Shown: positions 8,461 through 56,756 of the stretch, piece by piece
Numbering within the stretch: position 1 is the stretch's first letter
Layout: the number at the start of each line of letters is the position of its first letter
Origin: a phage
Sequence record: PQ478073.1
Direction: 5' to 3' (one strand)
Length of the DNA stretch: 64,000 nucleotides
Made by a program: the position numbers and the translations under genes
The notes under the pieces: generated by a model
Database searches by the model: none
The model's input: the letters and a program-made list of their open reading frames with translations, nothing else
Told to the model about the DNA's origin: nothing

Positions 8461-8464
8461 GTAA

Positions 8465-8497
8465 GGTGACAGCAGAATATGTTGTCGCCTTTTTTTT
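8465..8497 (+). terminator. rho-independent terminator
   Basis: 9-bp stem with G-U pairs then 8-T run. Confidence 0.6.
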
Positions 8498-8498
8498 A

Positions 8499-9034
8499 AT
8501 CCTGAAAGGTTCCATATGGAAATGATTAAAGCCTAATCCACTCGAAAAGTAGAGGGTAGATGAGTAGTCCTTTCAGTACGAACAGCAAATGAAACCCGTT
8601 AGATGATGGCATAGTTTGAACCACTCACGGCAATGCGGCTGTATAAAGAACTCCAATAGGATAAAGAGAGTTCCTCGATAGACATATAAGGATCGCACCT
8701 TACCAATTATCTAAGGGAGATTTCATAAGAAATATGCGGTCGGAATTATACAATATAGTTGCGTCCAAATTTTGTGAAATCAAATACAAGTACTGGTCAT
8801 ATGGTATTTGTATTATGTGTCGGGATGTTTAAGACCGACGACCGTTGCTACAAGAACCGCGATAGAGAGAAACAGAGCAACCCGCTTTCGTCTCGTAAGA
8901 GAATTCGTGATATGAACTATGTGAAGGCCACCAGCGTCAAATTTTTTTGTTCTTTCCCCTGCGGGGGGATGAAATATGCTCAAGCAAACCCCGTCAATAT
9001 TAATTAAAAGAAAATAGTACTTGTAGAATTAGAC
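8499..9034 (+). other. ORF-poor, GC-richer, hairpin-rich intergenic region; candidate structured RNA or regulatory/origin region
   Basis: no RBS-supported ORF; several inverted repeats (TTCCATATGGAA, GTTGCT...AGCAAC, CCCCTGCGGGG). Confidence 0.3.
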
Positions 9035-9109
9035 ATGCGTAGCATGGTAATTCTACTGATGTTGATGGAATCAACGTCACGTATATTCATTGATGTTTCC
9101 ATAGGAATA

Positions 9110-9655
9110 ATGATGGCATTTATTAGAAAACAAAAAACTTTTACCTATAAGACTTTGGATTTTGTTGATTGTGAAAACCAATTACAAGATGAAGATAACT
9201 TTACAGGATTTGTTGTTATTAAAGAAAAAGGATGCATTTCGTATATAAAGGAATTACAAAATGGAATTGAAGTGACTTCAGTTAAATTACTTCCTACTCA
9301 AAAACCAACAATATCAAAAGCCCAGTATGGTAATTATTTTGAAGAAAGATATAGTAATAATTCAATAAGTGTTAAGGCTCATATTATTAAAGGAGAACTA
9401 GAAGGAGAATATAGAAAATACAACCCACAAGGAAAATGTGTTTGGGTTAAATACTTCAATTCAGGATATGATGTAACATCTGAAATTATAGAATTCTTGG
9501 GTTTAAAATGTACCCCTGAGACTATTCATGATTACAAGTTCAATACTGAAGAAGAGTTTAATCTGATGATGCGTTACGGTTCACATTTTAAATTTTTATA
9601 TGAATATAACATTGACAGTAGTACTTTTGATAAGATAGTACACAACTGTCTCTAA
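9110..9655 (+). CDS. hypothetical protein (start uncertain; ORF opens at 9035)
   Basis: ORF track; AGGA RBS before internal ATG. Confidence 0.5.
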   Translation: MMAFIRKQKTFTYKTLDFVDCENQLQDEDNFTGFVVIKEKGCISYIKELQNGIEVTSVKLLPTQKPTISKAQYGNYFEERYSNNSISVKAHIIKGELEGEYRKYNPQGKCVWVKYFNSGYDVTSEIIEFLGLKCTPETIHDYKFNTEEEFNLMMRYGSHFKFLYEYNIDSSTFDKIVHNCL

Positions 9656-9671
9656 CAAAAGGAATTATATA

Positions 9672-10193
9672 ATGTCGAAGAAGGATGCTTCGAAAAAACA
9701 TTCAGTACATTTCAGTACTGGAAAAGATAACTGGACAACTCCCAAAGATTTCTTTGAAGATTTGGATGAGTTATGGGGATTTACACTTGATGCTGCTTGT
9801 GTAGATGAGACTGCATTGTGTGATAATTTTTTCACTCCAGAAGATGATTCACTATCACAGGATTGGGGAAATAATATAGTTTGGTTGAATCCACCATACA
9901 GTGACTTGAAAACTTGGTTATCTAAAGCAGTAGATGCATATAATAACGGGGCAACTGTAGTTATTCTTGTACCCTCAAGAACCGACACAATTGCTTTTCA
10001 GGATTATGCTGCTAAAATATGTGATTGTATTTGTTTTATTAAGGGAAGATTACGATTTGGTATACCAGAAGAACCCGATAAGAAAACAGATTCAGCACCA
10101 TTTCCTTCGTGTCTGATAGTACTGGATAAGTACTTAACCACTGCTAAAATCAATTATCTTAAATCTCTTGGGTTGGTGATGAAGAATTTATGA
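9672..10193 (+). CDS. phage-type DNA N6-adenine methyltransferase
   Basis: WTTP ... LDAAC ... WLNPPYS motif pattern; AAGGAA RBS. Confidence 0.8.
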   Translation: MSKKDASKKHSVHFSTGKDNWTTPKDFFEDLDELWGFTLDAACVDETALCDNFFTPEDDSLSQDWGNNIVWLNPPYSDLKTWLSKAVDAYNNGATVVILVPSRTDTIAFQDYAAKICDCICFIKGRLRFGIPEEPDKKTDSAPFPSCLIVLDKYLTTAKINYLKSLGLVMKNL

Positions 10194-10723
10194 AAGAAAC
10201 ATGTGTATTAACGTTTGGTCGTATTAATCCTGTACATCGTGGACATGGTTTAGTTTTTGAAAAGGCCAAAACATTACAAGAACAGTACAATGCTGATTTA
10301 AAAATATATCTAAGCACCAGTACTGACAATATAAAAAACCCACTCCCACCTGAACTAAAAATGTATTATACAGAGGGATTCTATCCTTCAGTGCAAGAGA
10401 ACATCTACACAGAAGACAATCTATTTGATATAATGAGAGAACTGGATGGAAAGTACTTAGATGTTCTTTTCATTTGTGGTTCTGACCGTATTGATTCTTT
10501 TCAAAAAACTCTTGACATGTACAATGGTAAGTTGTATAATTTTTGTAGTATAAAAGCAATTCAGGCAGGTATTGACCGTAATGTAAGTCAATATAGCTCA
10601 ACACAAATGCGTAACTTCGCAAAAAATGAAGATTTTGATAGTTTTCGTGAGTTTTTACCTGGAAATGACGAGGACTTAAAAATACAATTATTTGAAGACG
10701 TTATAAAATACATGAGGAAATAA
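10190..10723 (+). CDS. NadM-type nucleotidyltransferase (NMN adenylyltransferase-like)
   Basis: FGRINPVHRGH (HxGH) and ISST..R motifs; ATGA coupling to methyltransferase gene. Confidence 0.6.
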   Translation: MKETCVLTFGRINPVHRGHGLVFEKAKTLQEQYNADLKIYLSTSTDNIKNPLPPELKMYYTEGFYPSVQENIYTEDNLFDIMRELDGKYLDVLFICGSDRIDSFQKTLDMYNGKLYNFCSIKAIQAGIDRNVSQYSSTQMRNFAKNEDFDSFREFLPGNDEDLKIQLFEDVIKYMRK

Positions 10724-10725
10724 TT

Positions 10726-11019
10726 ATGTCAGTACTGTTCAAAACCAATCCAGTACTTTGGGATCAAAATGAGCAATCAGGATTTCGTTCCATCCATGTT
10801 GAATACAAAGGTAATACTGTAGTTGCAATTATTGCTAACAAAACTCTAGGAAACTGGACTGCACAGGTTGTTCCTATGGGATATTCTTACACATCTGATG
10901 AGGTACAATTCTTGGCTGAACTATATCGCCAAGTGCCGTTTATCATTAATGTACTAGAAGGTAATGATACATTATCACATGCAGATGTGATTAATTTTCT
11001 TGGAAACTTGCATGTGTGA
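10726..11019 (+). CDS. hypothetical protein
   Basis: ORF track. Confidence 0.6.
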   Translation: MSVLFKTNPVLWDQNEQSGFRSIHVEYKGNTVVAIIANKTLGNWTAQVVPMGYSYTSDEVQFLAELYRQVPFIINVLEGNDTLSHADVINFLGNLHV

Positions 11020-11299
11020 TGAAATAAATCTTACAGGATATTTTTTACAAGAATCAATGATTAAATTTAGTGAAAAATTTTCAGTACTGGATGGTATCGA
11101 AATGTGGCATGTCAAACCACTGTTCCACACTTTCAGTAAAGAGCACAAAATGTTATTGACTGAAGCGAGTAAATCAAATAACATATGTGAAATCAAAATT
11201 GGTGTAAATGTCTATAAAGGGATGGTTATCTTTTTTGACAATAACAGCAACTACTTTTATATTGTTAAGGAGCATTACGTTGACAAATACAAATACTAA
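11012..11299 (+). CDS. hypothetical protein (start uncertain)
   Basis: ORF track opens with TTG at 11000; first ATG at 11012. Confidence 0.4.
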   Translation: MCDEINLTGYFLQESMIKFSEKFSVLDGIEMWHVKPLFHTFSKEHKMLLTEASKSNNICEIKIGVNVYKGMVIFFDNNSNYFYIVKEHYVDKYKY

Positions 11300-11894
11300 T
11301 ACATACTTCCGTTATCTTCGCTTAGGTCTTTCCCTACGTCCGATCCGTGGAAAGTGCGATTCACTCGCTGACCTTGACTATGCATATGCATTACATCATG
11401 AAGGTGTACAGTATGTATTGGGTGATTATGGTGAATTTGAAGAAACAAATGACAGTACTGGAATTAATGCTGGTGTAGAAAATCTTAACAACATTGCTAA
11501 CAGTTCTCGCCATGACATTGTGTTACAGATTCAAAACTTTATTGAGCAGCACACAGGTAAACGTGTTTGGTGCTATGTCGGTACTGATGCACAAATGTCA
11601 ATTTCATTCGGTAACGATGAAGGATATGTTGCACAGCTTATTATGGATTTTGAATCTGAAGAGAAGTTTTTAGAATTCAAAGAAAAGATTATTCAGTCAC
11701 TTGTTGATATGGGTATCCCCGAAGATAAAATGCCAGAAGTTCAAAACATTGATGAATTTGTTTTGATTCCATCTGATGAGAAATATGATGCAATGTTTAC
11801 TGCCCTTAATATTCCAGGAGTTATTGTGGAGTACTTTGATGATGGTGATGATAGTATCTATATCGATCTAGATGACGATGACGACGATGAATAA
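11208..11894 (+). CDS. hypothetical protein with poly-Asp C-terminal tail (start uncertain)
   Basis: ORF track; C-terminus DLDDDDDDE; 5' part overlaps upstream ORF. Confidence 0.5.
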   Translation: MSIKGWLSFLTITATTFILLRSITLTNTNTNTYFRYLRLGLSLRPIRGKCDSLADLDYAYALHHEGVQYVLGDYGEFEETNDSTGINAGVENLNNIANSSRHDIVLQIQNFIEQHTGKRVWCYVGTDAQMSISFGNDEGYVAQLIMDFESEEKFLEFKEKIIQSLVDMGIPEDKMPEVQNIDEFVLIPSDEKYDAMFTALNIPGVIVEYFDDGDDSIYIDLDDDDDDE

Positions 11895-11900
11895 TGTACA

Positions 11901-11929
11901 TAGCCCGACATAAGTTCGGGCTATTTTTG
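11901..11929 (+). terminator. rho-independent terminator
   Basis: stem AGCCCGA/TCGGGCT then T-run. Confidence 0.65.
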
Positions 11930-11940
11930 TAAGGGGATAT

Positions 11941-12216
11941 ATGAATTATAAAGTTCTACAATATACATACAGTGTTTTGTTTGATTTACATCACAATGGA
12001 AGATATCTCAATACAATACGAGAAAACACATTCACTCATACTATCTGGATTAATCACTTAATAATGATACGTGAATATTTTGTTAATAGTGAGATAATCA
12101 TTCGTGGTAAAAAACAGAAGATAGAACAAGTTAATAGTTTTGGTGGTAAATTAGTACTATCATTTATAGATAGTAATACTAATGAAAGATATAGTATAGA
12201 TTTGGTGGACATATGA
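11941..12216 (+). CDS. hypothetical small protein, tandem paralog array A (member 1)
   Basis: ORF track; N-terminus MNYKVLQYTYSVLFDL. Confidence 0.6.
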   Translation: MNYKVLQYTYSVLFDLHHNGRYLNTIRENTFTHTIWINHLIMIREYFVNSEIIIRGKKQKIEQVNSFGGKLVLSFIDSNTNERYSIDLVDI

Positions 12217-12479
12217 ATTATAAAGATTTCCTACTAACATACAAGATTATTCGAGATTTAGCACACGACAATGATAGCCCTAGTCTAGAAGACACATGCA
12301 CTGAAATGATTCATACAATTCGTGGTAAGATTAAAAAAAAATTCAGTACTGTTATTATTGGTGATGACCATGCAGAATTTTCTGATATAATCATTAGACG
12401 TGATGGTAAAGTTGAGGTTCAGTACTACACTGATTTTGGATTTACCAGTATTCCGTTGGAGATATTCCCTTGGGATTAA
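12213..12479 (+). CDS. hypothetical small protein, array A (member 2)
   Basis: ORF track; MNYKDFLLTYKIIRDL; ATGA coupling. Confidence 0.6.
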   Translation: MNYKDFLLTYKIIRDLAHDNDSPSLEDTCTEMIHTIRGKIKKKFSTVIIGDDHAEFSDIIIRRDGKVEVQYYTDFGFTSIPLEIFPWD

Positions 12480-12781
12480 ATTTAAATGATATACAATTCA
12501 CTTATAAGATCCTATATGATTTGTATGATGTATACCTTGTTAGTAACAAAATAGGTTCACATAACCCATACAAAGAACAACCATTTATTGATTTATATAT
12601 TGAGTACTTAGATTCAGTAGGTGAATATATAAAAAAGAATTACAGTACTTTTATCGATGGAAATGATATATTCGAGTTCTCTGGAGTTAAATCATACAAT
12701 GGGATTATCCATGTTGAATTTCTTGAAATAACTGATAGGGGATTTATCGAGATTAAAGTTGTGAAGTTGGTGAATTTATAA
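12470..12781 (+). CDS. hypothetical small protein, array A (member 3), apparent TTG start
   Basis: ORF has no in-frame ATG; N-terminus LNDIQFTYKILYDLY parallels member 4. Confidence 0.5.
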   Translation: MGLNLNDIQFTYKILYDLYDVYLVSNKIGSHNPYKEQPFIDLYIEYLDSVGEYIKKNYSTFIDGNDIFEFSGVKSYNGIIHVEFLEITDRGFIEIKVVKLVNL

Positions 12782-12791
12782 GAGGTTACAT

Positions 12792-13103
12792 ATGTTATTA
12801 AATGATATACAATTCACATACAAATTTTTGTATATCCAATACGCTACGGTTGATGCTGGTGAATATCTCTACGATGAAATCTATCGTTCGCTATGGATAA
12901 AGTTTTTGGATGAATTACATGAATATTACCATGATTTGTGTATAGTTCGTGATAATAAAATATACAAATTCCGCGATATTGTTAGTCATAGCGGTAAGCT
13001 ACGATTGGAATTAAGTACTGATAGTGATGTTGATTGGATTGGTGTAAATTTACTGGAGTTGGAGAATGAAAAACAACTTAAAGGAAATACAAGTATTTTA
13101 TAA
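12792..13103 (+). CDS. hypothetical small protein, array A (member 4)
   Basis: ORF track; MLLNDIQFTYKFLYIQY. Confidence 0.6.
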   Translation: MLLNDIQFTYKFLYIQYATVDAGEYLYDEIYRSLWIKFLDELHEYYHDLCIVRDNKIYKFRDIVSHSGKLRLELSTDSDVDWIGVNLLELENEKQLKGNTSIL

Positions 13104-13350
13104 ATTCTTATACTTATCATATGTAAAAGATGAGTACTATGAAAGTGTGTATTATTTTTTATGGCAACATTACCGTACTATAGTAAGAGATTTATATATA
13201 GGAAAATCTATCATATCCAATGGTGAAAAATGTACCTGTACGGATGTAGTTAGTTTTAATGGTTCTTTAACACTGTGTTTCAGATGCGATAATAATAGTG
13301 GGTCATTTTCATTAAACGTATATCAGTTAGAAGGAATAAATTTTGAATAA
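13066..13350 (+). CDS. hypothetical small protein, array A (member 5)
   Basis: ORF track; GGAG RBS; MKNNLKEIQVFYKFLYLSY. Confidence 0.6.
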   Translation: MKNNLKEIQVFYKFLYLSYVKDEYYESVYYFLWQHYRTIVRDLYIGKSIISNGEKCTCTDVVSFNGSLTLCFRCDNNSGSFSLNVYQLEGINFE

Positions 13351-13543
13351 ATGTCCATATTGTAACAGTACTCAATTAGCTCGTTTCCGTTTAGATTCAG
13401 ACTGGGCGACTGGTGCTGGTGATTTCTTCCCTATTAATGATGATGCGGAATACACCGAAGAACAGCACAAAGATTTTGATAAATCATGGCGACCTGACAT
13501 TGAGTGCATTTATTGCCTTAATTGTGAGCGTGTTCATGACTAA
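13343..13543 (+). CDS. small zinc-ribbon protein (CPYC ... CLNC)
   Basis: ORF track; two Cys pairs. Confidence 0.55.
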   Translation: MNKCPYCNSTQLARFRLDSDWATGAGDFFPINDDAEYTEEQHKDFDKSWRPDIECIYCLNCERVHD

Positions 13544-13799
13544 AGCTGAACTAATAGTTCATACATATAAAATGATATCAAGTACTGAGTTATCATATAG
13601 TGCAGATAATCCAGTACTGGATTATTTTGTTGAATTATTGAAAGAGCATTATATTGGTAAATCACTGAATATTAATAATATTAATTTCACTATAACGGAT
13701 GTGGGACCAGGAAAAAACGTACTAATTGTATGTATTACTTCAACTGGTAACCCATTATACCCAATATCAGTAATTTTTGAGGTATTAGGTGATTTATGA
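13536..13799 (+). CDS. hypothetical protein (start moved from 13413 to internal ATG)
   Basis: track ORF overlaps upstream gene; ATG at 13536 overlaps upstream stop. Confidence 0.45.
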   Translation: MTKAELIVHTYKMISSTELSYSADNPVLDYFVELLKEHYIGKSLNINNINFTITDVGPGKNVLIVCITSTGNPLYPISVIFEVLGDL

Positions 13800-14086
13800 A
13801 TATCATATTAATACAAAAAACATATACTCTACTGATGAAAGAATATACTAATACTTATGATGAAAAGTGCAGTGCAAATCATAATATGTATGAATTCATT
13901 ACTCAAGAGTACAGGGATTATATATATGCTGTGTTAGTGGGTAGATATTTCAGTACTAGAAAATACACAAAACTTCAAATAGTTGATGTTTCTTTTTATT
14001 TCAATGGTCATATTACTATTCATAGTTTAGACCAAGATTCAACAACGTACTTAAACTTTTCATTTGATGAGGTAACATTTTTATGA
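13796..14086 (+). CDS. hypothetical small protein, array A-like
   Basis: ORF track; MNIILIQKTYTLLMKEY. Confidence 0.6.
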   Translation: MNIILIQKTYTLLMKEYTNTYDEKCSANHNMYEFITQEYRDYIYAVLVGRYFSTRKYTKLQIVDVSFYFNGHITIHSLDQDSTTYLNFSFDEVTFL

Positions 14087-17223: not shown

Positions 17224-17487
17224 ATGAATATTCAAGATAGATTACAATTACTGTACACACTTGAACAGGCTGCTTATGATCTTGTTCGAAAAATCTCAGA
17301 TGAACTACCTAAAGGAACTAAAGTTCGTGTACGTGAGATGAATTATTTTTCTGGAGTAATTGAAGAACAAGTACTAACAGTGAATAAAGTAACATACTAT
17401 GAATCTGAGTTGTCTATTCAGTGTGAATCGGATGATGGATTAATATCATATTATGGAACTGATGTAGATATAGAGGTAATAAAATGA
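17224..17487 (+). CDS. hypothetical small protein
   Basis: track ORF from 17179; ATG at 17224 follows upstream stop. Confidence 0.5.
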   Translation: MNIQDRLQLLYTLEQAAYDLVRKISDELPKGTKVRVREMNYFSGVIEEQVLTVNKVTYYESELSIQCESDDGLISYYGTDVDIEVIK

Positions 17488-18626
17488 CCCTTTTACAAAT
17501 ATATGAAGATTTAATGCACTTATGTAATACAAACGATGCATTCTTTTATGTGGATCATAAAAGTCCTGCTGGTGGCACGTATCGTGTATTCAGTTATCGT
17601 CTAGCATCATACACTGATTTCATGCAACCAAATGCGTTGGAAACCCGTGGCTCTATGTGGGAAATTGATGAAGAAGGTGAAATGATACGTTGTGCAGCAC
17701 GTACAATGAAAAAGTTCTTCAATGCTTACGAGAATCCTGCTACAATGTTCCCTGCTAACACCACATGCGATGACATTGCGGTAGTGATGCCTAAGTTGGA
17801 TGGTTCGATTATCAGTACTTACCGTGATAATGATGGTGAGATTCGTTGTAAATCACATACTGCATTGTATTCTGACCATGCGATTAACAGTACTCGACTT
17901 ATTAACGAGAACCAGAATTTGTATCAGTACATCGACGAAGCGGAACGTTTAGGTTACACAGTTAATATGGAGTATACAAGCCCAGAGTACCGAATTGTAT
18001 TACCATATCAGGTAGAACAACTGTTTGTACTGAACGTTCGTCATCGTGTGAGTGGTGAGTTGCTATGTGGTAAAGCACTACGTGATAAGTTTCCATGTCT
18101 TGCACAGTACAGTACTAATATGACTGGAAAAGATATTCATCACACTTTTCCGGTACGAAATACCTTCCGTGAAAGCGTGGAGGAAGTTCATAAAATGCTT
18201 GATATTGAGGGTTTTGTGTGCATCCTAAATAATGGGACAATGTGTAAAATAAAGACTGACTGGTACAGTTCATTACATCTTACAAAAGATAGTATTATTA
18301 TTGATTCTCATTTATATGAAGCAGTATTAAATGGTTCAAGTGATGATTTAAAACAATTGTTCAGTACTGATGAATATGCTATGCAAAAGATATTAAGAAT
18401 GGAACAATTGGTATTTTCGTGCTATAATGCATTACAAGATGAAGTAGAAAGCTTCGTCAAGGAACACAAGCACTTGGAGCGAAAGGAATTCGCAATGAAG
18501 GTTCAGGAGTGTTTAACTAATGAACTGAATCGTCAGGGCTTGGCCTTTGCAATGTATAACAATAAGAAAGTTGATTACAAAGAGACTCTTATAAAATACA
18601 TGAAAATTGTACTAAAGGATTTTTAG
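17484..18626 (+). CDS. rnlA: RNA ligase 1 (T4 RnlA type)
   Basis: KLDGS nucleotidyl-lysine motif; N-terminal region aligns by eye with T4 Rnl1; ATGA coupling. Confidence 0.85.
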   Translation: MTLLQIYEDLMHLCNTNDAFFYVDHKSPAGGTYRVFSYRLASYTDFMQPNALETRGSMWEIDEEGEMIRCAARTMKKFFNAYENPATMFPANTTCDDIAVVMPKLDGSIISTYRDNDGEIRCKSHTALYSDHAINSTRLINENQNLYQYIDEAERLGYTVNMEYTSPEYRIVLPYQVEQLFVLNVRHRVSGELLCGKALRDKFPCLAQYSTNMTGKDIHHTFPVRNTFRESVEEVHKMLDIEGFVCILNNGTMCKIKTDWYSSLHLTKDSIIIDSHLYEAVLNGSSDDLKQLFSTDEYAMQKILRMEQLVFSCYNALQDEVESFVKEHKHLERKEFAMKVQECLTNELNRQGLAFAMYNNKKVDYKETLIKYMKIVLKDF

Positions 18627-19722: not shown

Positions 19723-20655
19723 ATGCCAACTATTACACTAACAGTTGGATTACCTGGGTGTGGTAAAACCACATGGGCAGTTCAAGAAATTAAAAATGCC
19801 AAATCCAAGACTATCAACATCAACCGTGATGATATTCGTGAATCTATGGCTGGGTCACATGATGCTTACAAATTCAACGATGCTAATGAGCAGTACGTAA
19901 CTAATTTACAGTTCAGTGCAGCAAATTCAGCAGCAGAGAATGGTTGGAACATCATCATATCCGATACAAACCTTAAACAACATTTCCGTAATCTCTGGAA
20001 AGTATGGGCTAAAGATAATGGTTATGATTACAAAGAAAAGAACTTCTATGATGATTTTGTACCTAATGAAGACCGTGGTGCAGATGTTCATGAATTCTTT
20101 AAGATTAAAGAGTTCGTAAAACTTTGTAAGAAATATAACCTCCAGCGTGAGCGTTCAGTACAAGATGATATCATTGACACAATGGCAGATACGTACTATT
20201 ATAGTAAGGCATTGCACATTGGTTACTATGGTAATTCACGAGAAGCTGCTGTTATCGTTGATATTGACGGTACTCTTGCTCATAAATGGGGTCGTAATCC
20301 TTACGATGAAAGTACTGTTCTTCAGGATACACCTGATGAAGAAGTTATTTTGTCTATTATCGCTGAAGCAGTTTTTCATAAACGCAAGATTATCGTCATG
20401 AGTGGGCGTACTGAAGGGTGTCGTGCTGATACCGAACAGTGGCTTAAGAATTGGGGTGTTCCTTACGATGCATTGTTTATGCGAGATATCGATGATAAAC
20501 GTCCTGATGATGTTGTAAAATTCGACCTGTACATGAAAAATGTGGTTGATCATTACGATGTTAAAAAGGTATATGATGACCGAGCACAAGTCGTATTCAT
20601 GTGGCGTAAGCTACTTGGCTTGAAAGTTTTTCAAGTTGCAGAAGGAAATTTCTAA
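19723..20655 (+). CDS. pnk: polynucleotide 5'-kinase / 3'-phosphatase (T4 Pnk type)
   Basis: Walker A GLPGCGKTT; HAD-phosphatase motif DIDGTL; ends QVAEGNF like T4 Pnk. Confidence 0.88.
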   Translation: MPTITLTVGLPGCGKTTWAVQEIKNAKSKTININRDDIRESMAGSHDAYKFNDANEQYVTNLQFSAANSAAENGWNIIISDTNLKQHFRNLWKVWAKDNGYDYKEKNFYDDFVPNEDRGADVHEFFKIKEFVKLCKKYNLQRERSVQDDIIDTMADTYYYSKALHIGYYGNSREAAVIVDIDGTLAHKWGRNPYDESTVLQDTPDEEVILSIIAEAVFHKRKIIVMSGRTEGCRADTEQWLKNWGVPYDALFMRDIDDKRPDDVVKFDLYMKNVVDHYDVKKVYDDRAQVVFMWRKLLGLKVFQVAEGNF

Positions 20656-35862: not shown

Positions 35863-35871
35863 GGATTGAAT

Positions 35872-36624
35872 ATGATATCAGAAAAATTTATAAGTAATGA
35901 AGGTAAAAAAAGATTACTGATTATATCTGGTGCAGGACTTTCTGTTGAAAGTGGTATGGAACCTTTTCGATTTGATGATGGTTTGTGGGATACATTTAAA
36001 ATCAATGATGTATGTAACATTGCTAGTTTAACTACGAAATATCACGTTGTTCATTCCTTCTATAATACATTACGTGTAAAATTGGGACAATGCGAACCCA
36101 ATGCAATGCATTATTTTATAAAATCGTTAGAAGATCAATATGGTGATTGCTTCCTTCATATGACTTCTAACATGGATGATCTTTATACTCGTATCGGTGG
36201 TCATGAGCTTAAACTTCATGGAAACTTGTGCGAAGTTATTGAAAATTATAGTATCAATTCCGATGATTATAATGTTATTAACTGCGGATACGAACCATAC
36301 ATACCAAAACATGATGTTTTTGCTAAACCAAATGTAGTAATGATTGGAGAATATCATCGTTATGTTGATGGTATTCGCTTACCAATTTACGAAGAACGAA
36401 ATAATGTGTTGAAATCTCTTAATGAAAATGATACAGTTATTGTAATTGGTAGTAGCGATACAGTACTAGTATGGTCGAGATTAGCAGCAGCATTACCATG
36501 TTATAGTGTTAATGTTAACATTCGTAAAAATGATAATGATTTTTTGTTTAATGAAAAAGTTATCAAGCCAGCAACCAAAGCAATACCACATCTAGAGACT
36601 ATAATTAAGGAACGTATGAAATGA
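35872..36624 (+). CDS. Sir2-family (sirtuin-like) NAD-dependent enzyme
   Basis: GAGLSVESGMEPFR NAD-binding motif; HG catalytic pair; GSS near C-terminus; AAGGA RBS. Confidence 0.75.
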   Translation: MISEKFISNEGKKRLLIISGAGLSVESGMEPFRFDDGLWDTFKINDVCNIASLTTKYHVVHSFYNTLRVKLGQCEPNAMHYFIKSLEDQYGDCFLHMTSNMDDLYTRIGGHELKLHGNLCEVIENYSINSDDYNVINCGYEPYIPKHDVFAKPNVVMIGEYHRYVDGIRLPIYEERNNVLKSLNENDTVIVIGSSDTVLVWSRLAAALPCYSVNVNIRKNDNDFLFNEKVIKPATKAIPHLETIIKERMK

Positions 36625-37172
36625 GTGTTAAAGAAGTTCCCTTTGGTGAATATGGCTCACGTGCAAATTTTGTATTTTGTTATTTCTTTGCAAGAAAATG
36701 TAACCCTTACAAAAACTATGAGTTGAATGATATACCAGAAGTAAATTTAGTTTTACTACAATTACGATGGGATGGTCTTCTTGGTGGATGTGGTGGAACC
36801 GTAGAAAGTACTGATATCTCACTAGAAGATGCGTTGCGTCGTGAAGTTCAAGAAGAAATGGATTACAATATTTTTGTTTCCCATCTTCGACCACTCAAAA
36901 CTTTTGAAATTTACCCAGGTGCAAACAGTCATAGTTTTAGCTATGAAGTAAGCTATGACGAGTTGAAACACATTAGAGATGGATACACTAATGCTAAACA
37001 TGCGAGTGCTGAAGTTGCTGGTGTAAATTTATGTCATATTTCTCGTTATTCTAAGGGACAAAATCGAGAAGCGGGATATAATAATCTTATGACACAGAAC
37101 TTCATTGGTACAGCAAAACAAGAATTGGAGTATCTGGTTCAAAAAGAAAACTTACTAATTAGTTATCTATAG
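36621..37172 (+). CDS. Nudix hydrolase
   Basis: Nudix box GGCGGTVESTDISLEDALRREVQEE; ATGA coupling to Sir2 gene. Confidence 0.7.
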   Translation: MSVKEVPFGEYGSRANFVFCYFFARKCNPYKNYELNDIPEVNLVLLQLRWDGLLGGCGGTVESTDISLEDALRREVQEEMDYNIFVSHLRPLKTFEIYPGANSHSFSYEVSYDELKHIRDGYTNAKHASAEVAGVNLCHISRYSKGQNREAGYNNLMTQNFIGTAKQELEYLVQKENLLISYL

Positions 37173-37181
37173 GAGTTTAAC

Positions 37182-37502
37182 ATGTCTTACGCAATGTTTT
37201 TGGATGATATTCGTGATGCAAATCTATATTATCCAAACCAAGATATGGTGGTATGTCGTGACTTTAAAAGTGCATGTGAATATGTTATTGAAAATGGAAT
37301 TCCAGCATTTGTATCATTCGACCATGACTTGGGTGATGTGAGCGAAGACGAAAAGACTGGATATTCTTTTGCTAAGTTTCTTATTGATTATATGTTTGAT
37401 AATAATATTAAAGAACCGTTTGAGTACTTTGTTCACAGTAGTAATCCTGTTGGTAAAATTAATATTGAAACATACTTAAACAATGGATTTAACGCATTAT
37501 GA
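37182..37502 (+). CDS. hypothetical protein
   Basis: ORF track; GGAG RBS. Confidence 0.55.
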   Translation: MSYAMFLDDIRDANLYYPNQDMVVCRDFKSACEYVIENGIPAFVSFDHDLGDVSEDEKTGYSFAKFLIDYMFDNNIKEPFEYFVHSSNPVGKINIETYLNNGFNAL

Positions 37503-37861: not shown

Positions 37862-39301
37862 ATGAAAAAATATACAATTGACACAAACGTACTACTATCT
37901 GACCCTAATGCATCTATTGCTTTTGATGGTGCTGCAATCATTCTACCATTTACAGTACTGGAAGAATTAGATTCGATTAAGAGTCGTAATGTAGATGTTT
38001 CACGCGATGCTCGTGTTGCTATTCGTAACATTGAAGCAATTATTGCAGATGCATCACATGACGAGATTAGTAGTACTGGTGTTAATATTGCTGATGTTCA
38101 TACCAATATGAATCCTGATAGCAAATTGTTTGTTATTACAAACGAAGAAGCTGAGGCACTAATTCGTACTAAAGGTACAGAAGAGAAAGTTCAAACCCTT
38201 CTCAAAAGTACTGTACCTGATGATAAAATCATTCTGGTAGCTTTAGCAACAGAATCAGTACTGGTAACTCGTGATATCAACATGCGTATCAAAGCACTAA
38301 GTTATGGTGTCGAGGTACAAGATTATCGCCATGATATTGTTATTGGTGATAGTGATTTGATTCACATTGGTCAACACCATCTGGAAATCAATTTTTGGGA
38401 AGTATACAGCAACTTAACCAATACTAATATTCAATCCGAACAAGTTGGTCGTCGTTTGTATCATTACATTTCTAAAAGCTTGATTGAACATCTGCTTCCA
38501 CAAAATCTATGCATCGGTGATTATCTATATGATGATGCTGACGTATTATTTGTGTACGAAGGACAATCAGCAATTGAGGAAGATGATGGAACACTAACAC
38601 CAGAAGATATTTTGGTATTCCAAGACATTGGACAATCAGTGGCTTTACGTGCTAAAGTATGGGATATTAAAGCAAAGAATATCCAACAAGCACTCGCCAT
38701 CAACAGTATTCTCGATCCTGATGTACATCTAACAGTACTACTAGGTTCTGCTGGTACTGGTAAAACACTAATTACAATTGCTACTGCATTAGAATTAGTA
38801 CTGGAAAAACGTAAATACGACCGAATCATCTTCTCTAAAACTCAAGACTCACAGTTTGAAGATATTGGTTTCTTGCCAGGTTCAGAAGCAGAAAAAGTGA
38901 TTCCATTCTGTGGAGCCGCGATTGATGCGTTAGAGTTTCTTCATAAAGATGATGCAAACCCACAAGGTAGTATTGAAGAGATTATGAAACGTAATGTTAT
39001 TCAATTTAAAGCACTAAACTTTGTACGTGGACGTTCATTCACCAACACTATTCTAGTAGTTGATGAATTCCAAAACATTACACCTGCACAAGCAAAAACC
39101 ATCTTGACACGAGCAGGGTTAAACTGTAAAGTAGTAATTATGGGTAACTTGAGTCAGATTGACAGTAAGTTTATTAGTCCTGTTAACAGTGGTTTGACAT
39201 ATGTAACTGAGAAGTTTAAAGACTGGGCAGGTTGTCGTGTCATCGAACTAGAAGGTGTTGTTCGTTCACCACTGGCTGAATTTGCTGAAGAAAATATGTA
39301 A
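37862..39301 (+). CDS. phoH: PhoH-family ATPase with N-terminal PIN domain
   Basis: Walker A LLGSAGTGKT; PIN-like acidic N-terminus (DTN ... EELD). Confidence 0.85.
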   Translation: MKKYTIDTNVLLSDPNASIAFDGAAIILPFTVLEELDSIKSRNVDVSRDARVAIRNIEAIIADASHDEISSTGVNIADVHTNMNPDSKLFVITNEEAEALIRTKGTEEKVQTLLKSTVPDDKIILVALATESVLVTRDINMRIKALSYGVEVQDYRHDIVIGDSDLIHIGQHHLEINFWEVYSNLTNTNIQSEQVGRRLYHYISKSLIEHLLPQNLCIGDYLYDDADVLFVYEGQSAIEEDDGTLTPEDILVFQDIGQSVALRAKVWDIKAKNIQQALAINSILDPDVHLTVLLGSAGTGKTLITIATALELVLEKRKYDRIIFSKTQDSQFEDIGFLPGSEAEKVIPFCGAAIDALEFLHKDDANPQGSIEEIMKRNVIQFKALNFVRGRSFTNTILVVDEFQNITPAQAKTILTRAGLNCKVVIMGNLSQIDSKFISPVNSGLTYVTEKFKDWAGCRVIELEGVVRSPLAEFAEENM

Positions 39302-41566: not shown

Positions 41567-42538
41567 ATGAAAACTAAAATTATTTCTGAACAAAAAATTG
41601 GCAATACTACAGTACTGAATCTTGAAGTTCAAGGTCTTAGTAATGTTCGTTCTCTTACGGTTTGTACTCAGAGAGATGATTTGACTGATTTCTATAGCTC
41701 AGAATACATGTCAGAAGAACCTTGGGATATGGGATGGTTGGACGGTAGTAGTTATATCAGTTCTCGTTATAGTTTTGGTTCTCATGAAAATATTGAACAA
41801 GTAAAAAATGAGTATATTAAACTCAGTGATACTATTGAAATGGAAGAAGTCGATTGTGTAGAACTTTTCATTTTTGAATTCGATGCCGGAAATGGTAATT
41901 CATTACTAGTAAGTAATATTGAAGAACATTTAATGTATCATGAAATTGAAGATGTAGATTTTGAAAGTATTAAAAATGTTGTTCATATGGTTGGTGGTAG
42001 TATTACGGATGATTCAGATATCGGTCATAATATTTCACTGTGCTTAATTTCTCATCCAAAAACTCGTGGTTTTAAAGTTCCACAAGATGAAACTTACGTG
42101 TTTGAAACTGCTGATGAAGGAATTTATCCTTGGAATGATTATGTAGAATACTATGGTCATTTCTGTTCTGATATAAAAGAACTGAAAAAAGGCGAACAAT
42201 ATTTTGATATGTTTCGTGCTGCACAGCGTTTAGTACTGAATAATACTGAACTATTTCCTGATCGCGGCGAAGAAAATATGATTGATATTATCTTCAAGAA
42301 CTATGATTATGTACAGAACATTCCTGATAATGTACATTTGGAATATGTTCACGGTTCTTCAAACAAATTCTATAATATTGAATTGAATGCTCCAGTGTGT
42401 GAAGTAATTATTGAGTACGGTTCTATTGGTAAAACCAGTACTACAGATGGTGAAGAATTCGAAACTATTGAAGAAGCACGTAAGTTCTTCGAGAAGAAAG
42501 TAATTTCTAAAATTAAAAGTGGTTATAGCCCAAAATGA
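41567..42538 (+). CDS. hypothetical protein; C-terminal segment loosely WGR-domain-like
   Basis: ORF track; C-terminal EYGSIGKTST ... EEARKFFEKK ... KSGY pattern. Confidence 0.6.
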   Translation: MKTKIISEQKIGNTTVLNLEVQGLSNVRSLTVCTQRDDLTDFYSSEYMSEEPWDMGWLDGSSYISSRYSFGSHENIEQVKNEYIKLSDTIEMEEVDCVELFIFEFDAGNGNSLLVSNIEEHLMYHEIEDVDFESIKNVVHMVGGSITDDSDIGHNISLCLISHPKTRGFKVPQDETYVFETADEGIYPWNDYVEYYGHFCSDIKELKKGEQYFDMFRAAQRLVLNNTELFPDRGEENMIDIIFKNYDYVQNIPDNVHLEYVHGSSNKFYNIELNAPVCEVIIEYGSIGKTSTTDGEEFETIEEARKFFEKKVISKIKSGYSPK

Positions 42539-56354: not shown

Positions 56355-56756
56355 ATGACTACAGTTGATGATATCTACAGCACTATACGCAATATGAGTA
56401 CAGATAGAAAAGTATTTGGTGATAAAGAAAAATCTAAGTGTTATGGTATTGATTCTTTTGATATAATTTCTTATGAGTACAACACGAGTGGAAATAGTTC
56501 ACTGAATATCGTCTGCCCTCGTGACCCAGAAAATAATTTTATGTATGTTGAAATTAATAATGATGGAATATTTTTTACAAAAGTTTTTAAAGGTGGAATT
56601 AATTACGAACCAATTGAATGTATGAATGAAGAAACTTTCTTTCAAGAAGATACAATTATCAATTTAGGTTTTAGTTTTGATGATTATAAAACATTAGAAC
56701 ATGACTTTAATCGTTATTATAACGGTTTCTTAAAGGAGTTAACAATTTATCTATGA
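56355..56756 (+). CDS. hypothetical protein
   Basis: ORF track. Confidence 0.55.
   Translation: MTTVDDIYSTIRNMSTDRKVFGDKEKSKCYGIDSFDIISYEYNTSGNSSLNIVCPRDPENNFMYVEINNDGIFFTKVFKGGINYEPIECMNEETFFQEDTIINLGFSFDDYKTLEHDFNRYYNGFLKELTIYL

What the first reader, a model, noticed from the sequence alone, without database searches (positions are those of the whole stretch)
10190..10723. NadM-type nucleotidyltransferase coupled to the DNA methyltransferase gene
The HxGH motif in FGRINPVHRGH and a later ISST..R motif match NMN adenylyltransferase-type enzymes. A phage-encoded NAD-synthesis step could replenish NAD+ during infection, for example against NAD-depleting host immunity. No nicotinamide phosphoribosyltransferase partner is evident in this window.
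Basis: partly seen in the sequence, partly recalled or inferred. Interest (0 to 1): 0.5.

Follow-up and report, generated by a model that had tools for sequence, protein, structure and literature searches.

The report
Orphan NMNAT-like adenylyltransferase in jumbo phage
The gene is real and encodes a small nucleotide-transferring enzyme from a large, biochemically untested phage family that most resembles the enzymes making NAD+, but it fails every NAD-enzyme family test and the phage lacks the partner enzyme, so its role in NAD+ supply is plausible rather than shown.

Summary
The ORF at 10190-10723 (+, 177 aa) is real. Both motifs are there (FGRINPVHRGH; YSSTQMR rather than ISST..R), and its ATG overlaps the stop codon of a Dam methyltransferase gene (ATGA).

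The window is an Asteriusvirus jumbo coliphage, 99.3% identical to 121Q. The gene is 121Q gp418, already annotated "cytidyltransferase".

It is a minimal, domain-only member of a very large phage family (PHROG 3041/395; at least 3,400 clusters at 50% identity). The family is near-universal in T4-like cyanophages, where papers call it "cytidylyltransferase" or "NMNAT" and find it in virions.

Fold and profile comparisons place it in the adenylyltransferase branch (NMNAT, PPAT, FMNAT), not with true cytidylyltransferases. NMNAT-type enzymes are marginally the closest. No comparison reaches a family threshold, and automated names flip between NaMNAT, FAD synthase and PPAT.

It is not part of the known phage NAD pathway. 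Sister phage GAP32 carries this gene plus a separate NadM-Nudix and NAMPT. A complete Asteriusvirus genome has neither.

Verdict: an ATP-dependent adenylyltransferase. NMN or NaMN is the single most likely acceptor (about 0.4), unproven. In about 60% of related marine-phage loci the domain is adjacent or fused to DUF6267.

The parts
10190..10723 (+). CDS for a 177-aa HIGH-superfamily nucleotidyltransferase (121Q gp418 orthologue): a single Rossmann-like domain plus a C-terminal helical subdomain
   Evidence: ORF. PHROG 3041 at E 8.5e-58. 99.3% DNA identity to 121Q, where the gene is annotated 'cytidyltransferase'. AlphaFold model with mean pLDDT 88.
10214..10246 (+). Motif 1, FGRINPVHRGH (the HxGH / T-x-G-H nucleotide-binding signature). 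Family consensus is F-G-R-x-N-P-P-T-x-G-H.
   Evidence: Sequence. G10, R11, N13, P14, G18 and H19 are conserved in at least 90% of 203 family domains. Aligned by hhalign with GSFNPITNMH of human NMNAT1.
10313..10360 (+). Motif 2, S42-x3-D46-x2-K49-N50-P51-L52-x4-K57, on the loop after strand 2
   Evidence: Conservation of 87-100% across the family. Aligned by hhalign with SPVGDAYKKKGL of human NMNAT1 and with KNPFTFEER of the GAP32 NadM domain.
10478..10528 (+). Motif 3, G97-S-D99-R100-x3-F104 ... Y111-N112-G113, the probable acceptor-substrate pocket
   Evidence: G97, D99, R100, Y111 and N112 are conserved in 97-100% of family domains. hhalign aligns GSDR..F with GADLLESF of human NMNAT1, and Y111 with W169.
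10592..10612 (+). Motif 4, YSSTQMR (the ISxTxxR-type motif). Family consensus is M-S-A-S-K-M-R.
   Evidence: Sequence. S136 and R141 are invariant. Aligned with ISSTKIR of human NMNAT1 and ISSTAVR of RibF.
9672..10193 (+). Upstream Dam-family DNA N6-adenine methyltransferase gene; its stop codon overlaps the NTase start codon
   Evidence: Pfam Dam at E 7.4e-32 and PHROG 111 at E 7e-57. The same gene pair occurs in GAP32 (GAP32_068/069).
10190..10193 (+). ATGA start/stop overlap, suggesting translational coupling of Dam and the NTase
   Evidence: Read directly from the sequence. The coupling is not obligatory: phage ECO103 4-12-1 has a roughly 780-bp endonuclease-gene insertion between the two genes.
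8463..8491 (+). Terminator-like hairpin that precedes the six-ORF unit 9035-11894 containing Dam and the NTase
   Evidence: Consensus scan only.
11900..11924 (+). Terminator-like hairpin that closes the same unit
   Evidence: Consensus scan only.

Best explanation
The gene encodes a stand-alone, minimal member of a large phage-specific clade of HIGH-superfamily adenylyltransferases: 121Q gp418, the cyanophage 'cytitidyltransferase'/'NMNAT', PHROG 3041/395.

Mechanism. By inference from the superfamily, the enzyme binds ATP through the (T/H)xGH and SxTxxR motifs and transfers AMP onto the phosphate of a phosphorylated acceptor, releasing pyrophosphate. The acceptor is not established. The single most likely one is a pyridine mononucleotide (NMN or NaMN), which would yield NAD+ or NaAD.

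The enzyme would work independently of the known phage NAMPT+NMNAT pathway (NARP2). It could top up NAD+ from NMN or NaMN made by the host, for example NMN released by the host NAD-dependent DNA ligase, or NaMN from host salvage. The phage itself encodes at least one NAD-consuming enzyme type (Sir2-like).

What is shown: the fold, the motifs, family membership, the gene context, and the absence of NAMPT/NadM-Nudix. What is inferred: ATP as donor, NMN/NaMN as acceptor, and the physiological role.

The confidence of 0.4 refers to NMN/NaMN adenylyltransferase activity. Confidence that the protein is an active HIGH-superfamily adenylyltransferase of some kind is about 0.9.

hhalign of a 203-sequence family profile against verified single sequences gives NadM 83%, NadR 73%, RibF 70%, human NMNAT1 (loop removed) 60%, CoaD 26%, NadD 18% and HldE 5%.

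The alignment with human NMNAT1 (sequence verified against PDB 1KQN) lines up four motif blocks. It also places invariant Y111 opposite W169, which from my own knowledge is the Trp that stacks on the nicotinamide ring.

Among the 32 family members scanned against NCBIfam, the function-specific models hit most often are NMN/NaMN adenylyltransferases: TIGR00482 by 18 members, TIGR01526 by 7 and NF002243 by 7.

All family-invariant residues are present in the window protein.

Cyanophage papers annotate family members as NMNAT. S-SCSM1 ORF91 scores 206 bits with my family profile.

The phage encodes a Sir2-like protein.
Against: Every match to a characterised family is below its curated threshold: TIGR00482 19.8 against 112.45; Pfam FAD_syn 17.3 against 27; CTP_transf_like 17.3 against 21.

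The best sequence match in PDB for the family profile is the TmcAL-like protein MJ0951, not an NMNAT.

The D..N..W segment after strand 3 of NadM enzymes, which I recall as NMN-binding, is not conserved in the hhalign alignment.

No NAMPT or Nudix partner is present. GAP32 already has a bona fide NadM-Nudix, so this gene is at best redundant for that role there.

Most phage genomes carrying the family are cyanophages. Fewer than 55 Synechococcus phage records carry a NAMPT homologue, while 375 carry this NTase.

The conserved pocket is unusually rich in Lys and Arg (K49, K57, R100, R129), which would also suit a more highly phosphorylated acceptor or a nucleic acid.

There are no biochemical data for any family member.
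Confidence: 0.4

Rival explanations
1. It is an adenylyltransferase for a different small-molecule acceptor. It could be FMN adenylyltransferase (making FAD), phosphopantetheine adenylyltransferase (making dephospho-CoA), or an enzyme for a still unknown phosphorylated metabolite. The chemistry would be the same (ATP + X-phosphate gives AMP-X + PPi) but the cofactor pathway different.
Against: All these hits are below threshold and mostly cover the shared N-terminal motif. Fewer family members hit FMNAT or PPAT models than NMNAT models. No riboflavin kinase or CoA-pathway gene is found next to the gene in any locus examined.
Confidence: 0.25
2. It acts on nucleic-acid ends, or alongside end-processing enzymes, rather than in cofactor synthesis. 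Examples would be adenylylating a 5'-phosphate, forming an NAD-type cap, or activating a small acid as TmcAL does. Its partners would be the DUF6267 protein, PNK-like kinases and Pol-beta nucleotidyltransferases.
For: DUF6267 (PF19782) is upstream on the same strand in 42 of 80 viral loci and fused to the NTase in 3 more. PHROG 455 is this fusion. About 45 clusters of fused proteins of roughly 595 aa exist. Other members are fused to Pol-beta-type NTase domains or to PNK/Zeta-like and AAA_17 P-loop kinases. The best PDB sequence hit of the family profile is the TmcAL-like MJ0951 at E 1.8e-5. The window gene lies 7-9 kb upstream of rnlA and pseT. The pocket is rich in Lys and Arg.
Confidence: 0.15
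3. It is a true cytidylyltransferase or sugar/polyol-phosphate nucleotidyltransferase (TagD-, CCT- or HldE-like) that makes CDP-glycerol or an NDP-sugar for surface or DNA glycosylation. This is what the GenBank name implies and what a jumbo-phage review suggested for some cyanophage HIGH NTases.
For: GenBank and PHROG call it 'cytidyltransferase'. There is a weak Pfam CTP_transf_like hit, although that family also contains adenylyltransferases. PMC7824862 proposes that HIGH NTases make NDP-sugars in cyanophage glycosylation clusters.
Confidence: 0.05

Closest known systems
NadM-type NMN adenylyltransferase (archaeal NMNAT; the NMNAT domain of NadM-Nudix, e.g. Francisella 2QJT and phage GAP32 gp112, which is the NMNAT of the phage NARP2 pathway)
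   Different: Only about 15-18% identity. No NadM profile reaches threshold. There is no Nudix domain and no NAMPT neighbour. The D..N..W segment of NadM is not conserved. In GAP32 it coexists with a real NadM-Nudix as a separate gene.
Eukaryotic NMNAT / bacterial NadD-type NMN/NaMN adenylyltransferases (human NMNAT1 1KQN; TIGR00482)
   Same: Four motif blocks align: FNPxTxxH, S..D..KK..L, G(A/S)Dxxx(E/S)F and S(S/A)(T/S)K(I/M)R. Invariant Y111 falls opposite W169 of NMNAT1. TIGR00482 is the function-specific NCBIfam model hit by the most family members, 18 of 32.
   Different: hhalign probability is only 36-60% for NMNAT1 and 18% for E. coli NadD. TIGR00482 gives 19.8 bits against a cut-off of 112.45. 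The protein is much shorter and lacks the insertions of those enzymes.
Cyanophage 'cytitidyltransferase'/'NMNAT' (Syn9 gp184, S-SCSM1 ORF91, S-SZBM1 gp140; PHROG 3041/395/455)
   Same: This is the family the window protein belongs to. PHROG 3041 matches at E 8.5e-58, tblastn identity is 30-39%, and all invariant residues are shared.
   Different: Cyanophage members are 360-1,200 aa. They carry N-terminal extensions, an SH3-like module, DUF5824 and Lys-rich tails, and have been detected in virions (PMC9146016, PMC9602691). They sit in the replication module, often next to DUF6267. The window protein is the bare 177-aa catalytic domain, is coupled to a Dam gene, and has none of these additions.
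Phosphopantetheine adenylyltransferase (CoaD) and the FMN adenylyltransferase domain of RibF
   Different: Profile matches are below threshold. No pathway genes lie nearby. Fewer family members hit these models than hit NMNAT models.

Membership tests
HIGH-superfamily (HUP class) nucleotidyltransferases | Rossmann-like fold with an N-terminal (H/T)xGH motif and a C-terminal SxTxxR/KMSKS-type motif | tested here: met
Phage 'cytidyltransferase' family PHROG 3041 / 395 | Significant match to the family profile across the catalytic domain | tested here: met
   PHROG 3041 at E 8.5e-58 over residues 2-176; PHROG 395 at E 1e-24. The exhaustive search finds 3,419 representatives, 2,250 of them at E below 1e-10.
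NadM-type / archaeal NMNAT (TIGR01527, NF002243, NF003786) | Score above the curated cut-off of an NMNAT family model | tested here: not met
   The window protein gives no hit to these models at E up to 1. Its only NMNAT-related hit is TIGR00482, at 19.8 bits against a cut-off of 112.45. Across 32 family members the hits to NMNAT models are all weak, with a best E of 3e-6.
NadM-type / archaeal NMNAT | G-R-F-Q-P-x-H-x-G-H and N-P-F-T-x-x-E-R motifs (recalled from the literature and seen in GAP32 gp112) | tested here: inconclusive
   The window has G-R-I-N-P-V-H-R-G-H and K-N-P-L-P-P-E-L-K. hhalign aligns these with the GAP32 gp112 motifs. They are similar but not identical, and this is not diagnostic on its own.
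NadM-type / archaeal NMNAT | NMN-binding segment after strand 3 (D-x3-N-x2-W; a residue assignment recalled from memory) | tested here: not met
   In the hhalign alignment with GAP32 gp112 the segment HDYVYNNSKW falls opposite non-conserved positions 70-80 of the family. The functional assignment of these residues comes from my memory, not from a tool.
Phage NARP2 pathway (NAMPT + NMNAT) | Co-occurrence and adjacency of the NMNAT gene with a NAMPT gene | tested here: not met
   tblastn with GAP32 NAMPT and NadM-Nudix finds nothing in the window or in the complete Asteriusvirus genome OR844650 at E up to 0.01. There are no hits within 6 kb in 80 viral loci. In GAP32 the true pair lies about 22 kb away from this gene.
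NMN/NaMN adenylyltransferase (any type) | Catalysis of NMN/NaMN + ATP to NAD+/NaAD + PPi | not testable with these tools
   This needs an enzyme assay. No biochemical study of any family member was found in the literature searches.
Glycerol-3-phosphate / choline-phosphate cytidylyltransferases and the HldE adenylyltransferase domain | Match to family profiles, and a compact core fold without the NMNAT-type C-terminal subdomain | tested here: not met
FAD synthetase N-terminal domain (PF06574) and PPAT (TIGR01510) | Score above the curated cut-off | tested here: not met
   FAD_syn gives 17.3 bits against 27, and over residues 2-37 only. CoaD models are hit by 2 of 32 members at E around 0.004. 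Similarity at the fold and hhalign level remains, so an FMNAT-like or PPAT-like activity is not excluded.

The most novel reading that the evidence does not exclude
The family may not be a cofactor-synthesis enzyme at all. It could be the catalytic core of an undescribed phage module (HIGH NTase + DUF6267, sometimes with a PNK-like kinase or a Pol-beta NTase) that is packaged into virions in cyanophages. That module might act on nucleic-acid ends or on a nucleotide-derived molecule at the start of infection, for example by 5'-adenylylation, NAD-type capping, or a repair or counter-defence step. The jumbo-phage gene would be the stripped-down, non-packaged version, coupled here to DNA methylation.
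Probability: 0.15. Interest if true: 0.7.

Novelty: new variant of a known kind. Interest (0 to 1): 0.35.

Why it matters
If the enzyme is an NMNAT, it would represent a fourth, phage-specific lineage of NAD+-forming adenylyltransferases, beside NadD/eukaryotic, NadM and NadR. That lineage operates without NAMPT. It is carried by nearly all T4-like cyanophages, where it appears in virions, and by several jumbo-phage groups. This would widen the picture of how phages manage NAD+ beyond NARP1-3.

If it is not an NMNAT, one of the most widespread "auxiliary metabolic genes" of marine phages is misnamed in two different ways. Its conserved partner DUF6267 would then point to an undescribed function.

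For this window alone, the gene is an already annotated, uncharacterised enzyme. The practical result is a corrected and more cautious annotation.

Tried and rejected
1. Sequence searches of PDB with the protein and with an 11-sequence profile gave no hits. The 32-sequence profile gave only weak hits.

2. I looked for the missing C-terminal modules of long family members among the window's neighbouring ORFs by blastp and found none.

3. I looked for NAMPT and NadM-Nudix in the window and in a whole Asteriusvirus genome. Both are absent.

4. I tested whether DUF6267 is a ligase.
   - hhalign against the window's DNA ligase and RnlA: nothing.
   - phmmer and a profile search against PDB: nothing.
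   - AlphaFold model with pLDDT 77, but the C-terminal 50 residues carrying two of the putative motifs are disordered.
   The ligase idea therefore stays a conjecture based on motifs.

5. I checked whether the Dam adjacency is a family-wide link. Dam homologues next to the NTase were found only in the Rak2-like phages examined (the window, ECO103 and GAP32), and none in the 80 viral loci. In ECO103 an endonuclease gene insertion separates the two genes. I therefore treat the pairing as lineage-specific synteny, not as evidence of a shared pathway.

6. Gene contexts in Pseudomonas phage 30-3 and Stenotrophomonas DLP_6 were mostly 'hypothetical protein' and uninformative.

7. Literature searches for 'cytitidyltransferase' and 'DUF6267' found no papers. 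No biochemical characterisation of the family was found.

8. The 121Q GenBank label 'ribonucleotide reductase A' for this gene is rejected as an annotation carry-over.

Full report
**What is there.** The window carries an ATG-initiated ORF at 10190-10723 on the + strand, encoding 177 aa. The upstream ORF 9672-10193 is a Dam-family N6-adenine methyltransferase (Pfam PF05869 at E 7e-32; PHROG 111 at E 7e-57). Its TGA stop overlaps the ATG of the finding (ATGA at 10190-10193), and a GGTGA sits 10 nt upstream. Terminator-like hairpins at 8463-8491 and 11900-11924 bracket a six-ORF unit that contains both genes (a consensus scan only).

**Where the window comes from.** Megablast of 9000-12000 gives 99.3% identity to Escherichia phage 121Q, and 95-99% to PBECO4, phAPEC6 and other Asteriusvirus jumbo phages of about 350 kb. 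The gene is 121Q gp418. RefSeq annotates it 'cytidyltransferase', and the original GenBank record calls it, wrongly, 'ribonucleotide reductase A'. As a gene it is therefore already known and annotated. As an enzyme it is uncharacterised.

**Family.**
- The protein matches PHROG 3041 ('cytidyltransferase', E 8.5e-58), PHROG 395 (E 1e-24) and the C-terminal half of PHROG 455 (E 9e-9).
- Curated libraries give only sub-threshold hits. In Pfam, FAD_syn scores 17.3 bits (cut-off 27) and CTP_transf_like 17.3 (cut-off 21). In NCBIfam, the NadD model TIGR00482 scores 19.8 (cut-off 112.45).
- The word-indexed protein search finds only Asteriusvirus-like relatives down to 59% identity, with every motif residue invariant.
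- An exhaustive HMMER search with that alignment finds 3,419 cluster representatives at E up to 1e-3, and 2,250 at E up to 1e-10. Most are 300-1,200 aa proteins in which the 175-aa domain is only one part.
- tblastn against 50,697 phage records finds the domain in 566 records. Of these, 460 are T4-like cyanophages (Syn9 gp184, 'cytitidyltransferase'). The rest are Rak2-like jumbo phages, some Pseudomonas jumbo phages, DLP_6 and others.
- The window protein is the bare catalytic domain.

**Placement within the HIGH superfamily.**
- The AlphaFold model is confident (pLDDT 88, pTM 0.83).
- Foldseek against PDB ranks PPAT, NadD and human NMNAT1 together, at E 3e-6 to 1e-4 and TM about 0.6.
- A 32-sequence family profile searched against PDB sequences gives only weak hits: TmcAL-like MJ0951 at E 1.8e-5, a NadR-like NMNAT at 0.007, M. 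jannaschii NMNAT at 0.035 and PPAT at 0.048.
- I ran hhalign against single reference sequences taken from annotated records (E. coli NadD, CoaD, NadR, RibF and HldE; GAP32 gp112) and against human NMNAT1, whose sequence I verified as identical to PDB 1KQN.
- With the 203-sequence profile the probabilities are NadM 83%, NadR 73%, RibF-FMNAT 70%, NMNAT1 (loop removed) 60%, CoaD 26%, NadD 18% and HldE 5%. With the 32-sequence profile RibF comes first at 94%.
- I scanned the 32 members one by one against NCBIfam. After the generic adenylyl/cytidylyltransferase domain model (23 members), the models hit most often are for NMN/NaMN adenylyltransferases: TIGR00482 by 18, TIGR01526 by 7 and NF002243 by 7. 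FAD synthetase models follow (up to 4 each) and CoaD models (up to 2). There are no hits to TagD, CCT or HldE models.
- Names given by automated pipelines to family members include 'nicotinic acid mononucleotide adenylyltransferase', 'FAD synthase', 'phosphopantetheine adenylyltransferase' and 'cytidyltransferase-like'.
- Conclusion: the protein belongs to the adenylyltransferase branch, so the database name 'cytidyltransferase' is probably wrong. NMNAT-type enzymes are its nearest characterised relatives by a small margin. It is not a member of NadM, NadD, NadR, PPAT or FMNAT by any curated criterion.

**Active site.** Across 203 family domains the residues conserved in at least 90% are G10, R11, N13, P14, G18, H19, S42, K49, N50, P51, L52, K57, G97, D99, R100, Y111, N112, G113, a SAGxR segment (about residues 125-130), S136, R141 and F152. 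The window protein has all of them, apart from Q125 in the SAGxR segment and a one-residue shift of its Arg (R130). The first His of HxGH is Thr in 86% of the family, as in PPAT and eukaryotic NMNAT.

The hhalign alignment with human NMNAT1 superposes the following:
- GSFNPITNMH on GRxNPPTxGH;
- SPVGDAYKKKGL on SxSQDxKKNPL;
- GADLLESF on GSDRVxEF;
- ISSTKIR on MSASKMR;
- W169 on the invariant Y111.

That W169 stacks on the nicotinamide ring is my recollection of the NMNAT1 structures, not a tool result. In the alignment with GAP32 NadM, by contrast, the D..N..W segment after strand 3 has no conserved counterpart. The pocket also holds four conserved basic residues beyond those expected for ATP. 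This evidence is suggestive for a pyridine or other aromatic mononucleotide acceptor. It is not decisive.

**Genomic tests of the NAD hypothesis.**
- Sister phage GAP32 (Mimasvirus) has the same Dam-NTase pair (GAP32_068/069; 39% identity to the window protein).
- About 22 kb further on, GAP32 also has a genuine NadM-Nudix (gp112) and a NAMPT (gp114), next to Sir2 and Nudix genes.
- The window keeps the Sir2 (35866-36624) and Nudix (36621-37502) homologues but has no trace of NadM-Nudix or NAMPT. Neither does the complete genome of Asteriusvirus ECO103 4-12-1, which is 96-99% identical to the window (tblastn at E up to 0.01).
- NAMPT is present in other phages that also carry this NTase: GAP32, Salmonella 7t3 and the RaK2-like Klebsiella phage RCIP0023. 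It is also in CBB, Munch and EJP2.
- So the NTase and the NARP2 pair are inherited independently. The NTase is retained where NARP2 is missing.
- None of 80 viral-contig loci has NAMPT or NadM-Nudix within 6 kb.
- Fewer than 55 Synechococcus phage records have a NAMPT homologue, whereas 375 carry the NTase.
A NAMPT-independent role remains possible, for example re-adenylylating NMN released by the host's NAD-dependent ligase or boosting the NaMN-to-NaAD step, but that is inference.

**What the rest of the family shows.**
- Long members carry, after the catalytic domain, an SH3-like module ('IFNVGD...RGSNY...KWL'), DUF5824 and Lys-rich helical tails.
- Some have N-terminal Pol-beta-type nucleotidyltransferase domains. 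Others have C-terminal PNK/Zeta-like or AAA_17 P-loop kinases.
- The strongest association is with DUF6267 (PF19782). Of the 80 viral loci, it is fused in 3 and present upstream on the same strand in 42. In 15 of those 42 it abuts or overlaps the NTase gene. Of the 35 loci without it, 8 have too little upstream sequence to judge.
- The DUF6267-NTase fusion is PHROG 455, and about 45 clusters at 90% identity are of the fused form.
- DUF6267 has invariant K-W-D-G, Q-G-D, P-N-T, P-E-G-x-V and K-L-x-x-R-x-E-F segments. These remind me of the covalent nucleotidyltransferases (ligases and capping enzymes). I could not confirm this by profile or fold searches, partly because the C-terminal strands are poorly modelled.
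- DUF6267 is absent from the window and the Asteriusvirus genome, and I did not find it in the GAP32 stretches I examined.

**Cyanophage context.** In classical cyanomyoviruses the gene lies in the replication module, near the gp41 helicase, MazG, primase, UvsX and NrdA genes. It is flanked there by genes for virion proteins. S-SCSM1 ORF91, annotated 'NMNAT (virion protein)', scores 206 bits with my family profile. S-SZBM1 gp140 'cytidylyltransferase' was also found in purified virions (PMC9146016), and the S-SCSM1 paper notes the same for S-CBWM1 (PMC9602691). Whether the 177-aa jumbo-phage protein is packaged is unknown. The main text of the phAPEC6 virion-proteome paper does not mention it, and it lacks the Lys-rich tail.

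**Verdict.**
The protein is NMNAT-like in fold and motifs, but it is not assignable to NadM or any other NMNAT family, and it is not part of a NAMPT-linked NAD pathway.
- The best-supported statement is that it is a catalytically intact ATP-dependent adenylyltransferase of a phage-specific clade.
- I put NMN/NaMN as acceptor at about 0.4, another small-molecule acceptor (FMN, phosphopantetheine or unknown) at about 0.25, a nucleic-acid-linked role at about 0.15, and a true cytidylyl or sugar-phosphate transferase at about 0.05. The remainder is unassigned.
- For this window the gene is an already annotated, ordinary-looking auxiliary enzyme, so interest is modest.
- The family-level picture is the part worth a follow-up: near-universal in cyanomyoviruses, found in virions, partnered with DUF6267, and named inconsistently across databases.

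Noticed in passing
L089 (OR844650.1, about 259000-259800 in the record), corresponding to the window junction 10190: In phages ECO103 4-12-1 and EC22.5-2, a roughly 780-bp insertion separates the Dam gene from the NTase gene. It encodes a 261-270 aa protein matching PHROG 681 'endonuclease' and looks like a homing endonuclease. The ATGA coupling seen in the window is therefore dispensable.
   Followed up: partly
window 10512-10540 (+): A perfect sigma-70 consensus promoter (TTGACA, 17 nt, TATAAT; 12 of 12 matches) lies inside the NTase ORF, pointing at the downstream small ORFs (10726 onward). This is a consensus match only. The total number of promoter-like sites in the region is not above the shuffled expectation.
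   Followed up: no
window 35866-37502 (+): Sir2-like gene (35866-36624), followed by a Nudix-family gene that is a single 301-aa ORF in GAP32. Here it is split into two in-frame ORFs (36621-37172 and 37182-37502) by a TAG followed by GGAG...ATG. The same split is present in ECO103, so it looks like a gene fission rather than a sequencing error. The NadM-Nudix and NAMPT genes that lie a few genes upstream of Sir2 in GAP32 are missing.
   Followed up: partly
window 11941-14086 (+): A tandem array of at least six paralogous ORFs of about 90-100 aa. Their N-termini are similar (e.g. 'NDIQFTYKILYDLY', 'NDIQFTYKFLYIQY', 'LKEIQVFYKFLYLSY'). Function is unknown.
   Followed up: no
window 8525-8729 (intergenic, upstream of ORF 9035): A roughly 200-bp sequence is repeated at two other places in the Asteriusvirus genome (84-85% identity to L086 30586-30791 and L084 18527-18717). 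It looks like a dispersed intergenic repeat.
   Followed up: no
L002-L081, L100, L101, L093 (viral and metagenomic loci): DUF6267 (PF19782, an uncharacterised family with at least 7,988 clusters) is a conserved upstream neighbour or fusion partner of this NTase domain in marine phages. PHROG 455 is the fusion. DUF6267 has invariant KWDG / QGD / PEGxV / KLxxRxEF segments reminiscent of ligase-type nucleotidyltransferases, but fold and profile searches did not confirm this.
   Followed up: partly
L102 (S-SCSM1 MK867354.2, record positions 86357-93306): In this cyanophage the family member (ORF91) sits in a small island of MS-detected virion proteins (ORF89, 90, 92, 93, 95, 97) embedded in the DNA-replication module. 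ORF89 and ORF92 are Lys-rich proteins related to those flanking the NTase in many viral contigs.
   Followed up: partly
window 41567-42538, 37862-39301, 56753-57985, 17484-18626, 19723-20655: Other genes in the window related to NAD or RNA repair: a protein with a WGR domain, a PIN-PhoH fusion, an RlaP-type Pol-beta nucleotidyltransferase, RnlA RNA ligase and PseT polynucleotide kinase.
   Followed up: no
KM507819.1 / NC_025447.1, gene 418: The original 121Q record names this gene 'ribonucleotide reductase A', and RefSeq keeps an 'NrdB ribonucleotide reductase A' note. The same mislabel appears in Salmonella phage 7t3 and Synechococcus phage S-MbCM25. It probably propagated from cyanophage records in which the gene lies near nrdA.
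   Followed up: partly
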